64,000 nucleotides of DNA from Minisyncoccia bacterium (GTDB lineage Bacteria > Patescibacteriota > Minisyncoccia > UBA6257 > 2-01-FULL-56-20): assembly GCA_050008535.1 (NCBI GenBank), contig JBEKML010000002.1:24732-88731 (forward strand), in the 5' to 3' direction. The translations under genes were made by a program, and so were the position numbers. The notes under the pieces are model-generated. The model worked only from the letters and a program-made list of their open reading frames with translations. It had not been told where the DNA came from and did not search any database. Each line of letters opens with the position of its first letter. Within the stretch, counting starts at the first letter, position 1. This document shows, one piece after another, positions 6,145-49,259 of this stretch.

Positions 6145-6615
6145 ATGTACATATGGTTGACGGCCAAAGGCGAAGAGACGCTTCGGCAACTCAAGACGGA
6201 AGGCAGAATCGGGGAGCTGAAAATCGAGACTCACAGGAACTCGGGCCTGCGATATGTCCCGGTTTCAGACGAGATCACGGATCCGACCGCTACGCTGATC
6301 CCGCAAAGCGTGATTGATCACGTGACGCTGGACGGAAGAATCCAAGAGGATCTCCGGCCGCAAGGAATCTACGTGCGGGGCGGCGCGACGGCGCAGGTGG
6401 AGACCGTAAGGAACGTTGTTGGGGGCTACGGCAACAATTCGCCTATGGTTGATCGCTACCAGATGGTCCGCGTTGTCGCCAAAACCGTGAGGGCGGCGAG
6501 GGCGATTTATTCGAAGGTCCGCTCCGGAGAACTCAAGCCGAAGCACAACTGGACGGCGGGTGCTGACCGCTCGGGGGTCACCGACGCTGCTGGTGCCGAG
6601 ATCGGCGATCAGTAA
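6145..6615 (+). CDS. hypothetical protein
   Basis: 156-aa ORF with strong promoter and AGGAG Shine-Dalgarno 6 nt upstream of ATG; no family recognised. Confidence 0.55.
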   Translation: MYIWLTAKGEETLRQLKTEGRIGELKIETHRNSGLRYVPVSDEITDPTATLIPQSVIDHVTLDGRIQEDLRPQGIYVRGGATAQVETVRNVVGGYGNNSPMVDRYQMVRVVAKTVRAARAIYSKVRSGELKPKHNWTAGADRSGVTDAAGAEIGDQ

Positions 6616-6796
6616 CCGCAAGCAGAAGGGTTAGCTCAGAGGAGCTAACCCTTCCAAATATGAGTTTATAATTATTTGTAATTTCATATTTGGACTGAAT
6701 GTTGGTGTACTACGTCTCCATCAGATCTTCCGGCGACCAGGTGATCTTCTCGCCGTCGACCCACCCCTCCGTTCGATTCCCCGTGAGCGCCAACGG

Positions 6797-6870
6797 CAAG
6801 AAAAATACAGAGGGGCTTTGAAGAGAGCCCTTCTGAGTACTCGATTCAAAGCCCCTCTGTATTTTTCTTG
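6797..6870. repeat. 26-bp-stem hairpin element with conserved loop (GAGCCCTTCTGAGTACTCG), copy 1; abuts 3' end of tRNA-Glu
   Basis: Perfect inverted repeat caagaaaaatacagaggggctttgaa / ttcaaagcccctctgtatttttcttg; loop nearly identical to copy at 14415-14484. Confidence 0.65.
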
Positions 6871-6945
6871 TGGTAGCCCCACCGGGAATCGAACCCGGAT
6901 TTACGCCGTGAAAGGGCGCCGTCCTAGCCATTAGACGATGAGGCC
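6871..6945 (-). tRNA. tRNA-Glu (UUC), CCA encoded
   Basis: Reverse complement GGCCTCATCGTCTAATGGCTAGGACGGCGCCCTTTCACGGCG...TTCGATTCCCGGTGGGGCTACCA folds as cloverleaf; anticodon loop CTTTCAC. Confidence 0.85.
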
Positions 6946-13553: not shown

Positions 13554-14411
13554 ATGGGCATTCTTCTTGCCATAACGGCGCTCTTCTCCTGGGGCTTGGG
13601 AGATTTTCTGATAGAAAAAAGCACGCGGAAGTTCGGCGATTGGATCGCGCTCTTTTATATCACCGCGTTCGGGGCGGTCATCCTCTTTCCGTTCGTCTAC
13701 CGCGACATTATCCCTGCGTTCACGGCGAACAGTTTTATTCTTTGGATAACCAGCCTTGTCATCTTCCTTGCCGCGCTTTTCAATCTTCACGCGTTGCGGG
13801 TGGGGAAGATATCCGTGGTGGAACCGATATTCGCCTTTGAGGTGCCCGTCGCTGGATTTCTGGCCGCTTTTCTCCTTAATGAGCGATTGAGCTTCGCCCA
13901 GATCTTTTTCATCGCAGCGCTCGTCATCGGCATTATCCTCGTTTCCACGCGCTCGTTCAGCCATTTCAAAAACATCCGCACGGAAAAAGGCGTGGGATAT
14001 GCGGTCGTCGGCACGATCGGCTTGGGCATTTCCGGCTTCCTCTACGGTCTCGGTTCGCGGGAAACAAGTCCGCTCATGATCAACTGGGTGAGCAATGCTT
14101 TCATGGCCGTCATCACTTTCTTTTACCTCACCGCGACCGGGAAACTTGCGGGGATCGCGGGGGACTTCAAAGAGAACAAACGCCTGATCCTGAACGTCAG
14201 TTTTTTTGATAACCTCGCGTGGATCACGTTCTCGTATGCGACGCTTTACATCCCCATTGCGATCGCGATGGGCGTGAGCGAGGGATACATTGCCTTCGCG
14301 GGAGGATTAGGGCTGCTTTTCAATAAAGAGAAACTGAAAGTCCACCAGTGGGTCGGCTTCTGCCTTGCCGCGGTGGCCGTCGTCGTGCTCGCGGTGATTA
14401 CAGACAAATAA
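13554..14411 (+). CDS. EamA/DMT-family transporter (10 TM)
   Basis: Two repeated EamA-like halves with ~10 hydrophobic helices. Confidence 0.75.
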   Translation: MGILLAITALFSWGLGDFLIEKSTRKFGDWIALFYITAFGAVILFPFVYRDIIPAFTANSFILWITSLVIFLAALFNLHALRVGKISVVEPIFAFEVPVAGFLAAFLLNERLSFAQIFFIAALVIGIILVSTRSFSHFKNIRTEKGVGYAVVGTIGLGISGFLYGLGSRETSPLMINWVSNAFMAVITFFYLTATGKLAGIAGDFKENKRLILNVSFFDNLAWITFSYATLYIPIAIAMGVSEGYIAFAGGLGLLFNKEKLKVHQWVGFCLAAVAVVVLAVITDK

Positions 14412-14414
14412 AAC

Positions 14415-14484
14415 GCAGCAACGCCAGAGGGTTTTGAAACGAGCCCTTCTTAGTACTCGTTTCAAAACCCTCTGGCGTTGCTGC
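14415..14484. repeat. 27-bp-stem hairpin element with conserved loop (AGCCCTTCTTAGTACT), copy 2; 8 nt from 3' end of tRNA-Lys and just after EamA stop
   Basis: gcagcaacgccagagggttttgaaacg / cgtttcaaaaccctctggcgttgctgc perfect inverted repeat; loop matches copy 1. Confidence 0.65.
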
Positions 14485-14491
14485 TGTCTTG

Positions 14492-14564
14492 TGCCCCCAC
14501 CAGGACTCGAACCTGGAACCTTCTCCTTAAGAGGGAGCAGCTCTGCCAATTGAGCTATAGGGGC
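14492..14564 (-). tRNA. tRNA-Lys (CUU)
   Basis: Reverse complement GCCCCTATAGCTCAATTGGCAGAGC...CTCTTAA...CCAGGTTCGAGTCCTGGTGGGGGCA; anticodon loop CTCTTAA. Confidence 0.8.
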
Positions 14565-14629
14565 GACAATCACTCCCATTTTATGGGGAGCGCGAAAAAA
14601 ATGCAATTACTGCTTCTTCTTTCTTGCTG

Positions 14630-14703
14630 TGCGCCCGTGAGGAGTTGAACCTCAAACCTCGTGGTTCGAAGCCACGCGCTCTATCCAGTTGAGCTACGGG
14701 CGC
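14630..14703 (-). tRNA. tRNA-Arg (UCG)
   Basis: Reverse complement GCGCCCGTAGCTCAACTGGATAGAGCGCGTGGCTTCGAACCACG...GGTTCAACTCCTCACGGGCGCA; anticodon loop CTTCGAA. Confidence 0.8.
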
Positions 14704-41256: not shown

Positions 41257-41328
41257 GCCGGAGTAGCTCAATGGCAGAGCAGCGCTTTTGTAAAGCGAAG
41301 GTTGGAGGTTCGACTCCTCTCTCCGGCT
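41257..41328 (+). tRNA. tRNA-Thr (UGU)
   Basis: GCCGGAGTAGCTCAATGGCAGAGCAGCGCTTTTGTAAAGCGAAGGTTGGAGGTTCGACTCCTCTCTCCGGCT; anticodon loop TTTGTAA; TTTACA-N17-TAATAT promoter upstream. Confidence 0.8.
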
Positions 41329-41337
41329 CAATAAAAA

Positions 41338-49179: not shown

Positions 49180-49251
49180 GCCGGAGTAGCTCAATGGCAG
49201 AGCAATGCTTTCGTAAAGCAGAGGTTGGAGGTTCGACTCCTCTCTCCGGCT
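49180..49251 (+). tRNA. tRNA-Thr (CGU)
   Basis: Identical to tRNA-Thr(UGU) at 41257 except anticodon arm (...GAGCAATGCTTTCGTAAAGCAGAGG...); anticodon loop TTCGTAA. Confidence 0.8.
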
Positions 49252-49259
49252 CCACTATA

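What the first reader, a model, noticed from the sequence alone, without database searches (positions are those of the whole stretch)
6797..6870. Hairpin repeat family with conserved loop directly 3' of tRNA genes (second copy 14415-14484)
Two elements have long perfect stems (26 and 27 bp) of different sequence, which are compensatory and structure-preserving. Their loop is almost identical (GAGCCCTTCTGAGTACTCG vs GAGCCCTTCTTAGTACTCG). Copy 1 abuts the CCA end of tRNA-Glu. Copy 2 lies 8 nt from the 3' end of tRNA-Lys and directly after the convergent EamA gene. Neither has a classical U-tract. Conservation of the loop but not the stem argues for a functional RNA or protein-binding element rather than a generic terminator. 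Examples would be a bidirectional terminator with a recognition loop or a tRNA-processing signal.
Basis: seen in the sequence. Interest (0 to 1): 0.55.

Follow-up and report, generated by a model that had tools for sequence, protein, structure and literature searches.

The report
Conserved-loop palindromic hairpins after stable-RNA genes
The two hairpins are real members of an undescribed family in Patescibacteria (CPR bacteria): long, perfectly paired hairpins at gene ends, mostly just after tRNA genes, whose stems differ at every site but whose 16-base tip is kept unchanged, so something in the cell probably recognises that tip.

Summary
Both window hairpins (6797-6870 and 14415-14484) sit directly 3' of minus-strand tRNAs. 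They share the loop AGUACU[A/C]AGAAGGGCU, read on the tRNA strand.

Public scans found 33 distinct copies, all in Patescibacteria MAGs or metagenome contigs and none in viral contigs. The stems are 23-40 bp and almost strictly Watson-Crick (97% paired, 26 of 29 positions with double compensatory changes, essentially no G-U). The loop is invariant.

- 15 copies abut a tRNA 3' end, 13 in sense and 2 in antisense orientation.
- Two lie in a 23S-5S spacer, three lie just upstream of a tmRNA or tRNA, and the rest follow ORFs such as S1 and L31.
- Orthologous copies keep the loop, including its A/C variant, while the outer stems turn over.

Most copies look like bidirectional intrinsic terminators: an A-tract, a GC stem and a U-tract folded into the palindrome. 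The spacer copies have no U-tract and no room for a promoter, so the loop serves something other than termination.

Best reading (inferred, confidence about 0.5): an RNA end-forming or processing hairpin whose tip docks a trans-acting factor. There is no Rfam match and no paper was found.

Side finding: a tiny insertion at tRNA genes, bounded by repeats of the tRNA 3' end, that carries this hairpin plus a structured about 150-nt RNA ('X').

The parts
6797..6870 (-). Type-A hairpin copy 1. Read on the minus (tRNA) strand: CAAGAAAAAUACAGAGGGGCUUUGAA-UC-GAG-UACUCAGAAGGG-CUC-UC-UUCAAAGCCCCUCUGUAUUUUUCUUG.
   Evidence: scored 80.3 bits with covariance model R1
6826..6841 (-). Invariant 16-nt loop core AGUACUCAGAAGGGCU of copy 1 (variable position = C).
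6871..6945 (-). tRNA-Glu(UUC) with encoded CCA. Its 3' end abuts copy 1.
14415..14484 (-). Type-A hairpin copy 2: 29-bp perfect stem and 12-nt loop.
   Evidence: 89.1 bits with R1
14442..14457 (-). Invariant 16-nt loop core AGUACUAAGAAGGGCU of copy 2 (variable position = A).
14405..14414 (-). U-rich tail GUUUUAUUUG directly after copy 2 on the tRNA strand. It overlaps the EamA stop codon on the opposite strand.
14491..14564 (-). tRNA-Lys(CUU), with no encoded CCA. Its 3' end lies 6 nt from copy 2.
14629..14703 (-). tRNA-Arg(UCG), 64 nt upstream of tRNA-Lys with no hairpin between them. It is presumably in the same transcription unit, which ends at copy 2.
13554..14411 (+). EamA/DMT transporter gene, convergent with tRNA-Lys. 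It ends 3 nt before copy 2. It is 100% identical to a protein of a Minisyncoccia MAG.
6757..6796 (-). Short similarity (GGGGAAUCGAACGGAGGGGUGGGUCG) to the 5' end of element X, which follows the same hairpin in related genomes. It is a possible remnant and is not significant with model R2.

Best explanation
The hairpins belong to a Patescibacteria-specific family of RNA end-forming hairpins. Each is a long, perfectly palindromic helix placed right at the 3' end of a transcription unit, preferentially a stable-RNA gene.

Shown:
- Where the palindrome contains A- and U-tracts, as in both window copies, it has the anatomy of a bidirectional intrinsic terminator.
- Each hairpin is capped by a module under strong sequence selection: a UUUGAAA/UUUCAAA helix, one variable pair, GAG/CUC, and the 12-nt loop UACU[A/C]AGAAGGG. 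The module is orientation-biased, so that AGUACUMAGAAGGGCU is in the transcript of the adjacent tRNA.

Inferred:
- The tip is a docking site for a conserved trans-acting factor, either an RNA-binding protein or ribonuclease, or a pairing partner RNA.
- The perfect helix of 25 bp or more is the kind of substrate that a double-strand-specific nuclease such as RNase III cuts, and it also blocks exonucleases.
- Together these features would separate and define the ends of tRNA, rRNA, tmRNA and highly expressed mRNAs.
- The strict Watson-Crick pairing reflects the need to fold on both strands, probably helped by self-templated correction of the DNA palindrome.
For: Family and structure:
- 33 distinct copies share the identical 16-nt loop core.
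- 97.2% of cells are paired, 26 of 29 pairs show changes on both sides, and none of 500 shuffles reached the observed values.

Selection on the loop:
- In the orthologous EamA/tRNA-Lys site of a relative with 86% identical EamA, the loop and inner stem are the same. 8 of the 15 outer pairs have changed, and all 8 changes are compensated.
- The tRNA-Glu copies in the window, L003 and L025 all have C at the one variable loop position. The tRNA-Lys copies all have A. This indicates vertical descent with purifying selection.

Strand specificity:
- Orientation relative to the abutting tRNA is 13 sense to 2 antisense, binomial p = 0.007.
- Opposite orientations within 300 bp follow the local gene direction (L010 and L008). 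This argues against a replication-strand effect.

Terminator anatomy:
- The A-tract, GC stem and U-tract lie inside the palindrome. T content in the 10 nt downstream is 41% on the sense side and 30% on the antisense side.
- Ordinary terminators in the window have the same design with loops of 3-5 nt.

A role beyond termination:
- Two copies lie between the 23S 3' end and the 5S 5' end, with gaps of 13-15 nt, no U-tract and no room for a promoter.
- One copy lies 40 nt before a tmRNA gene.
- Element X follows the hairpin within 10-20 nt.

Upstream ORFs include ribosomal proteins S1 and L31 and a KH-domain protein.
Against: - No transcript ends, cleavage sites or binding partner are known.
- The distance from the loop to the tRNA end varies from 25 to 33 nt, so a strict ruler mechanism is unlikely.
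- Two tRNA-linked copies carry the loop in antisense orientation.
- The complete absence of G-U pairs is unusual for selection at the RNA level alone and suggests a DNA-level component.
- Whole hairpins are gained and lost between syntenic genomes.
- Some copies ride on small insertions bounded by direct repeats, as mobile DNA would.
- Other hairpins in the same genomes carry different loops.
Confidence: 0.5

Rival explanations
1. A selfish or mobile palindromic repeat of the REP, MITE or PATE kind spreads to gene ends, or into the loops of existing terminators. The conserved tip would be the recognition site of a transposase or recombinase that acts on a DNA hairpin. Any terminator activity would be a by-product.
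For: - Whole-hairpin presence or absence between the syntenic loci L047 and L048.
- Another perfect palindrome inserted between tRNA-Ile and its promoter in L047 only.
- Strict Watson-Crick palindromy without G-U pairs.
- A fairly sharp conservation boundary around a 34-nt core.
- Four type-A copies (L001, L003, L004, L025) lie inside insertions of about 200-240 bp bounded by repeats of the tRNA 3' end.
- The loop of a second hairpin type is inverted between orthologues.
- The family is patchy across classes: Minisyncoccia and a bin labelled Saccharibacteria.
Against: - Copies within one genome all have different stems: five copies on contig Ga0187886_1000292.
- Orthologous copies keep the loop while the stems diverge, so the loop is selected in resident, non-moving copies.
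- Orientation follows the local gene, not a global strand.
- No target-site duplications were seen.
- No associated transposase was found next to any copy.
- None of the 15 core-motif matches in viral contigs lies in a hairpin.
- A 34-nt unit is far smaller than any known mobile element.
Confidence: 0.2
2. These are ordinary bidirectional intrinsic terminators. The shared tip is an inherited or convergent feature with no partner of its own, for example a loop that merely favours folding.
For: - A-tract, GC stem and U-tract anatomy, and position at gene ends.
- Mycobacterial TRIT shows that lineage-specific, sequence-conserved palindromic terminators exist (PMC3152330).
Against: - A 12-nt loop on an A/U-rich apical helix is a poor design for a terminator. 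Normal terminators in the same window use loops of 3-5 nt.
- 16 invariant nucleotides are kept across many independent sites and lineages while adjacent stem positions turn over.
- The same loop occurs in spacer hairpins that have no U-tract and must be read through.
- The orientation bias has no explanation if the loop has no function.
Confidence: 0.15
3. A DNA-level protein-binding or cruciform site at the ends of highly transcribed genes, for example a site for a topoisomerase or nucleoid protein (as BIME/REP elements are for gyrase), or a DNA-uptake signal.
For: - The perfect palindrome would extrude as a cruciform.
- The loop contains the palindromic octamer GAGTACTC (C variant) or the hexamer AGTACT (A variant).
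- Copies are enriched next to highly transcribed stable-RNA and ribosomal-protein genes.
Against: - A duplex-DNA site has no need for the loop to be oriented with transcription (13:2).
- In these contigs the motif occurs only in a hairpin tip, and only about once per 13-30 kb, far below uptake-sequence densities.
- The conserved part is asymmetric.
Confidence: 0.08

Closest known systems
Bidirectional Rho-independent (intrinsic) terminators
   Same: Position at the 3' ends of genes and between convergent genes. An A-tract, GC-rich stem and U-tract arranged as a perfect palindrome. Both window copies fit this.
   Different: Stems of 23-40 bp instead of about 5-15 bp. A 12-nt sequence-invariant loop instead of 3-5 free nucleotides. 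Some members lack a U-tract and lie inside an rRNA spacer that must be read through.
TRIT, the Tuberculosis Rho-independent terminator motif of mycobacteria (Gardner et al. 2011, PMC3152330)
   Same: A lineage-restricted, palindromic, mostly bidirectional motif at gene termini. Its sequence conservation led its authors to propose an extra binding factor.
   Different: In TRIT the double-stranded stem sequence is conserved. Here the stem is free and the single-stranded tip is conserved. TRIT overlaps stop codons (around -8) and is not reported as tRNA-linked. The sequences and the phylum are unrelated.
REP/BIME elements and their RAYT transposases; Correia and other MITE-like palindromic repeats (from general knowledge)
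   Same: Multi-copy extragenic palindromes at the 3' ends of genes that can act as terminators or mRNA stabilisers. Correia elements are RNase III substrates.
   Different: In those families the copies share the stem sequence, and REPs share a 5' GTAG-type tetranucleotide at the foot of the stem. The stems are shorter and imperfect. Here every copy has its own stem and only the tip is shared. No RAYT-like gene was seen next to any copy.
RNase III processing stems and excised hairpin insertions (IVS) of rRNA operons (from general knowledge)
   Same: Long, near-perfect double-stranded RNA flanking stable RNAs. Two family members sit exactly at the 23S 3' and 5S 5' flanks.
   Different: Classical processing stems form by long-range pairing of 5' and 3' flanks and have no conserved loop. 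Loop-guided cleavage is known for yeast Rnt1p (AGNN tetraloops), not for bacterial RNase III.
tRNA 3' external transcribed spacer RNAs such as 3'ETS-leuZ of E. coli (from general knowledge)
   Same: A structured RNA released from the 3' trailer of a tRNA transcript, with a possible function of its own.
   Different: 3'ETS-leuZ is a single locus that acts through a single-stranded region and Hfq. Here many loci display one common loop.

Membership tests
Intrinsic (Rho-independent) terminator | Stable GC-containing hairpin at the 3' end of a transcription unit | tested here: met
   MFE -50 to -63 kcal/mol with z-scores of -8 to -14. All copies lie at gene ends.
Intrinsic (Rho-independent) terminator | U-rich tract of 7-9 nt immediately 3' of the hairpin | tested here: inconclusive
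   Copy 2 is followed by GUUUUAUUUG. Copy 1 and many others carry the U-tract as the outer 3' arm, paired to an A-tract. Mean T is 4.1 of the 10 nt downstream. The L008 spacer copies and L048 have none.
Intrinsic (Rho-independent) terminator | Transcripts actually end there | not testable with these tools
   No RNA-seq or Term-seq data are available. Contexts with no room for a promoter (23S-5S spacer, hairpin followed by X, hairpin followed by tmRNA) argue that at least some copies are read through.
REP/RAYT-type or MITE-type repeat | Copies share the whole element sequence, including stem or terminal inverted repeats | tested here: not met
   26 of 29 stem positions vary with double changes. 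The five copies on one contig all differ.
REP/RAYT-type or MITE-type repeat | Associated transposase (RAYT/TnpA) in the genome; target-site duplications for MITEs | tested here: inconclusive
   Pfam and PHROGs scans of five ORFs flanking copies or element X gave no transposase or integrase hit, and none is evident in the gene tables of L045-L048; most flanking ORFs were not scanned. No TSD is visible at the L048 and L047 indels. Whole genomes could not be scanned.
TRIT-like conserved terminator motif | Conserved double-stranded stem sequence; restricted to Mycobacterium | tested here: not met
   The stem is variable, the loop is conserved, and the hosts are Patescibacteria (PMC3152330).
Any Rfam family | Match to a curated covariance model | tested here: not met
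   Only tRNAs reached the gathering score. At relaxed E-values there were only spurious miRNA-precursor hits far below threshold.
RNase III processing hairpin | About 20 bp or more of uninterrupted double-stranded RNA flanking a stable RNA | tested here: met
   Stems of 23-40 bp, 97% Watson-Crick. The copies abut tRNA, 23S and 5S genes.
RNase III processing hairpin | Staggered double-strand cleavage by RNase III | not testable with these tools
   This needs an in vitro cleavage assay or 5'/3' end mapping.
DNA uptake sequence | Very high genomic density (about 1 per kb), with function independent of hairpin context and orientation | tested here: not met
   About 1 copy per 13-30 kb (2 in the 64-kb window, 5 on a 64.7-kb contig). 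In the Patescibacteria contigs the motif is always in a hairpin tip. Orientation is biased.

The most novel reading that the evidence does not exclude
The hairpins are released from dozens of tRNA, rRNA and mRNA precursors as a distributed population of small RNAs of about 70 nt. All display one identical recognition loop. In that loop C-U-[A/C]-A fits a YUNR U-turn, with the only variable base at N, presenting AGAAGGG. The loop would dock a dedicated, still unknown CPR factor or a partner RNA. This would be a new, loop-addressed system for stable-RNA end maturation or regulation in ultra-small bacteria. The system is also carried by tiny protein-less insertions at tRNA genes (hairpin + X RNA + a copy of the tRNA 3' end), which would then be a new class of miniature integrative element.
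Probability: 0.2. Interest if true: 0.8.

Novelty: new variant of a known kind. Interest (0 to 1): 0.55.

Why it matters
Patescibacteria (CPR) are a huge, mostly uncultured part of bacterial diversity with minimal genomes, and almost nothing is known about how they end and process transcripts.

This family combines a free stem with an invariant tip, enrichment at tRNA, rRNA and tmRNA genes, and orientation with transcription. That points to a specific recognition system for RNA 3'-end formation or processing that is absent from model bacteria.

It gives a concrete handle:
- a 16-nt bait for pull-downs;
- a covariance model for annotation;
- a testable prediction for RNA-seq ends.

It also improves terminator and operon annotation in CPR genomes. 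The absence of G-U pairs and the rapid, always-compensated turnover of the stems offer a clean natural case for studying how perfect palindromes are maintained.

Tried and rejected
- **Rfam.** Searches at gathering and relaxed thresholds on the window and loci gave no family for the hairpin or for X.
- **Viral contigs.** There were no hits with the 18-base loop. The 15-base core gave 15 hits, none in a hairpin, so they are chance matches.
- **Divergent copies.** Model R1 found only three variants with CAG/CUG-type closing pairs in about 390 kb, and no further copy in the window.
- **tmRNA or tRNA-like gene on the opposite strand next to copy 1.** Rejected. No T-arm can be drawn, and ARAGORN and Rfam are negative. 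G-U counts place the related X RNA on the tRNA strand.
- **Sarcin-ricin-loop mimic or bulged-G motif in the loop.** Threaded by hand. The key U-A trans pair cannot form, so it was rejected. The loop 8-mer GUACUAAG is complementary to CUUAGUAC in the 23S fragment, but this is expected by chance at roughly p = 0.1.
- **Promoter within the core.** The hexamer spacing does not fit (by inspection).
- **Anticodon-arm mimic.** CU-CAG/AAG-AA looks like a Leu anticodon loop, but there is no 5-bp stem. Rejected.
- **Attenuator-like alternative pairing** of the loop AAGAAGGG with the 3' arm. The loop 8-mer ranks first or second of 70 permutations, but by a negligible margin. The effect is compositional.
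- **Link to encoded CCA.** None. Most tRNAs in these genomes lack CCA whether or not they have the hairpin.
- **Integrase next to X.** The flanking ORFs have no Pfam or PHROG hits.
- **Literature.** Searches for a description of this motif in CPR bacteria found nothing.

Full report
**1.

The window has two long inverted repeats with 12 nt between the arms. One is at 6797-6870 (31-nt arms, 94% complementary). The other is at 14415-14484 (29-nt arms, 100% complementary).

Folded as RNA on the tRNA strand, they give -50.5 and -63.1 kcal/mol, with z-scores of -7.9 and -14.4 against shuffles. The 19-nt loop string occurs twice in the window, where 0.01 matches are expected by chance.

ARAGORN and Rfam place tRNA-Glu(UUC) at 6871-6945 and tRNA-Lys(CUU) at 14491-14564, both on the minus strand. 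Copy 1 therefore starts at the base after the encoded CCA. Copy 2 starts 6-7 nt after tRNA-Lys and 3 nt after the stop codon of the convergent EamA gene.

On the tRNA strand the loop reads CGAGUACU[C/A]AGAAGGGCUC.

- The inner stems are similar in the two copies (GGGGCUUUGAA and GGGUUUUGAA).
- U-tracts exist. GUUUUAUUUG follows copy 2 on the tRNA strand. AUUUUUCUUG is the outer 3' arm of copy 1, paired to an A-tract.

The other six tRNAs of the window have no such hairpin, and a covariance model finds no third copy.

**2. It is a family, and it belongs to Patescibacteria**

An exact-pattern scan of one genome per species gave three hits. Each lies directly 3' of a tRNA, and two of the three are in MAGs labelled Minisyncoccia or Saccharibacteria; the third is labelled only 'uncultured bacterium'.

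A scan of metagenome contigs gave 41 stretches, mostly from peatland samples. About nine matches are bare motif hits without any hairpin. The rest are hairpins of the same build.

Two scans of viral contigs gave nothing in a hairpin context.

The window itself comes from a Minisyncoccia MAG, because its EamA protein is 100% identical to a protein of that MAG.

Counting two variants found with model R1 in the first set of loci, and one more in an orthologue locus, there are 33 distinct hairpins.

**3. Anatomy**

Thirty copies align without gaps (alignment A1).
- The invariant part is AGUACU-M-AGAAGGGCU, where M is A or C.
- In three variants (two in L008, one in L048) the flanking G-C pair is swapped to C-G (CAG...CUG). 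That position is therefore a base pair and not part of the recognised sequence.
- Next to it comes one variable position that is often unpaired.
- Then comes a 7-bp helix, UUUGAAA/UUUCAAA, with 70-93% conservation per position.
- Beyond that, each copy has its own stem sequence, for a total arm length of 23-40 nt.

Across the 29 modelled pairs, 97.2% of cells are standard pairs and 26 pairs show changes on both sides. No shuffle or slid register comes close.

There are no G-U pairs in the inner 22 pairs of the 30 sequences. The neighbouring X RNA in the same genomes does use G-U pairs. The DNA is therefore a true palindrome, and both transcripts carry identical arms. Only the loop and the flanks are asymmetric.

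**4. Where the copies sit**

- 15 of the 33 abut the 3' end of a tRNA, with gaps of 0-7 nt. At least 11 different isoacceptors are involved.
- Two lie back to back in a 23S-5S spacer. The order is 23S 3' end, 15 nt, a sense hairpin, 22 nt, an antisense hairpin, 13 nt, 5S 5' end.
- Three lie 40-70 nt upstream of a tmRNA gene or a tRNA gene.
- The others follow ORFs within 0-18 nt. These include an S1-domain protein, ribosomal protein L31, a KH-domain protein, thioredoxin reductase and a nucleotidyl-transferase.

Relative to the abutting tRNA, the loop is in the sense orientation 13 times and antisense twice. That gives a two-sided binomial p of 0.007.

Two copies 150 bp apart in L010, and the two in L008, have opposite orientations that follow the local genes. 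The bias is therefore tied to transcription and not to replication direction.

**5. Evolution**

In a relative whose EamA is 86% identical, the hairpin at the same EamA/tRNA-Lys site has the same loop and inner stem. It differs at 8 of the 15 outer pairs, and every change is compensated on the other arm.

The tRNA-Glu copies of the window, L003 and L025 share the C variant. The tRNA-Lys copies share the A variant. Each hairpin is therefore inherited vertically and its loop is held by purifying selection. The loops are not homogenised among copies.

Five copies on one 64.7-kb contig all have different stems. This argues against recent transposition of whole units.

Hairpins also come and go. 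Two syntenic contigs, L047 and L048, differ by a whole type-A hairpin and by another perfect palindrome next to tRNA-Ile. They share a hairpin with a different 18-nt loop that is inverted between them.

**6. What the hairpins do**

*Shown by sequence.* Many copies, including both in the window, have the layout of a bidirectional intrinsic terminator, with an A-tract, a GC stem and a U-tract folded into the palindrome. The flank downstream on the sense side is T-enriched (41%, against 30% on the other side). Ordinary terminators in the window have the same design but loops of 3-5 nt.

*Also shown.* The same tip occurs on hairpins that have no U-tract and that must be transcribed through. These are the 23S-5S spacer copies, the copy before a tmRNA gene, and the copies before X.

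*Inferred.* The tip is not needed for termination. It is a sequence-specific docking site on a rigid double-stranded RNA helix. The helix is an ideal substrate for a double-strand-specific nuclease and a block to exonucleases. Together they would mark and help form the ends of stable RNAs and of some highly expressed mRNAs.

The factor is unknown. I could not find a convincing partner RNA or a known RNA motif in the loop. One structural note: C-U-M-A fits the YUNR U-turn consensus, with the only variable base at N. That would present AGAAGGG for pairing or protein contact. This is a reading from general knowledge, not a test.

**7. Rivals**

- **A mobile palindromic repeat** recognised as a DNA hairpin. 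This explains the indels, the strict palindromy and the presence on small insertions. It does not explain loop conservation in resident orthologous copies with diverging stems, the transcription-linked orientation, or the lack of any nearby enzyme.
- **A plain terminator with an accidental shared tip.** This fails on the spacer copies and on the orientation bias.
- **A duplex-DNA binding site or an uptake signal.** This fails on orientation, on density and on the strict restriction to hairpin tips.

I put the RNA recognition model at about 0.5, mobile DNA at 0.2, a plain terminator at 0.15 and a DNA site at below 0.1.

**8. Comparison with known systems**

The nearest published analogue is the mycobacterial TRIT motif. 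It is a conserved, palindromic, mostly bidirectional terminator motif, and its authors also suspected an extra factor (PMC3152330). In TRIT the stem is the conserved part. Here the stem is free and the tip is fixed.

REP/BIME, Correia and other palindromic repeats share position and possible function, but their copies share the stem sequence. RNase III processing stems share the long helix next to stable RNAs, but they have no conserved loop.

No Rfam family matches. No paper in the searchable library describes the motif.

I therefore class it as a new variant of a known kind: terminator or processing hairpins, with an unusual conserved-tip design and a bias towards stable-RNA genes.

**9. Side finding: element X**

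In six loci (L001, L003, L004, L025, L007 and L028), the hairpin after the tRNA is followed on the same strand by a conserved, structured region of about 150 nt, which I call X. In L028 the upstream tRNA is only inferred, because ARAGORN did not call it.
- It has four hairpins with compensatory changes.
- A closing helix, GGGAAUC/GAUUCCC, co-varies with the local tRNA.
- In five of the six loci it ends in an exact 14-18-nt copy of the 3' end of the adjacent tRNA, running from GAUUCC of the T-loop to position 74. No such copy could be checked in L028. The tRNAs are Gln, Glu (twice), Ile and Arg.
- In L007 the hairpin in front of X has a different 21-nt loop.
- L025 carries a third copy of the tRNA-Glu end 1.5 kb downstream.

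This is the signature of site-specific integration at the T-loop. The inserted unit is only about 200-240 bp and encodes no protein. In a circular form, X, the tRNA-end copy and the hairpin would be one contiguous unit.

The window has at most a 26-nt remnant at 6757-6782, and this is not significant with model R2. I did not resolve what X is.

Noticed in passing
L025 5498-5653 (+); L001 1092-1250 (+); L003 3267-3428 (+); L004 420-561 (+); L007 5175-5335 (-); L028 4073-4227 (-); possible remnant in the window at 6757-6782: Element X is a conserved, structured, RNA-like region of about 150 nt directly after the tRNA-3' hairpin, on the tRNA strand. In five of the six loci it ends in an exact 14-18-nt copy of the adjacent tRNA's 3' end, running from the T-loop GAUUCC to position 74. 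The whole unit looks like a protein-less insertion of about 200-240 bp at tRNA genes, bounded by attL/attR-like repeats. It has no Rfam match.
   Followed up: partly
L025 5352-6945: There are three copies of the tRNA-Glu 3' end: the tRNA itself, one at +206 and one at +1506. The last two share the flank GAAAAT. A 306-aa ORF with no Pfam or PHROG hit lies between them. This looks like tandem accretion at an integration hot spot.
   Followed up: partly
L047 7226-7292 and L048 5412-5475: A second hairpin type has 23-25-bp perfect arms and an 18-nt loop. The loop is GAGCTCGTCTGCACGCGA in L047 and TCGCGCGCAGACGAGTTC in L048. It lies between convergent genes, and the loop is inverted between the two syntenic genomes.
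   Followed up: partly
L047 7945-7983 compared with L048 6085-6100: A perfect 18-bp palindrome with a GGG loop lies between the 5' end of tRNA-Ile(tat) and its upstream flank in L047. It is absent from the otherwise alignable site in L048. Perfect palindromes appear to be gained and lost as units in these genomes.
   Followed up: no
L007 5347-5409 (-): Between tRNA-Arg(tcg) and X there is a 21-bp perfect hairpin with a different 21-nt loop, UCGUGCCAUAAGAAUGAAUUC. It shares only UAAGAA with the type-A loop.
   Followed up: no
L008 13904-14618: The 23S-5S spacer holds two type-A-loop hairpins in opposite orientation. Neither has a U-tract, and there is no room for a 5S promoter.
   Followed up: partly
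window 6620-6655 and 6653-6694: After ORF 6145-6615 there is a 13-bp hairpin, GAAGGGTTAGCTC-aga-GGAGCTAACCCTTC. Its 5' arm, with the preceding bases (CAGAAGGG..GCTC), resembles the 3' half of the type-A loop. It is followed by an AT-rich imperfect palindrome with 19-nt arms.
   Followed up: no
L046 3540-3810: In a relative whose EamA is 73% identical, the gene is followed by a tRNA-like sequence that ARAGORN does not call, a plain terminator (CAAAAAACCCGA-tctc-TCGGGTTTTTTG), a fragment resembling the 5' end of X, and prophage-type genes (M78 peptidase and an HTH_3 repressor).
   Followed up: no
window 41257-41329 and 49180-49254: tRNA-Thr(tgt) and tRNA-Thr(cgt) share an identical 22-nt 3' segment (GTTCGACTCCTCTCTCCGGCTC). 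They are ordinary paralogous tRNAs, not att repeats.
   Followed up: no
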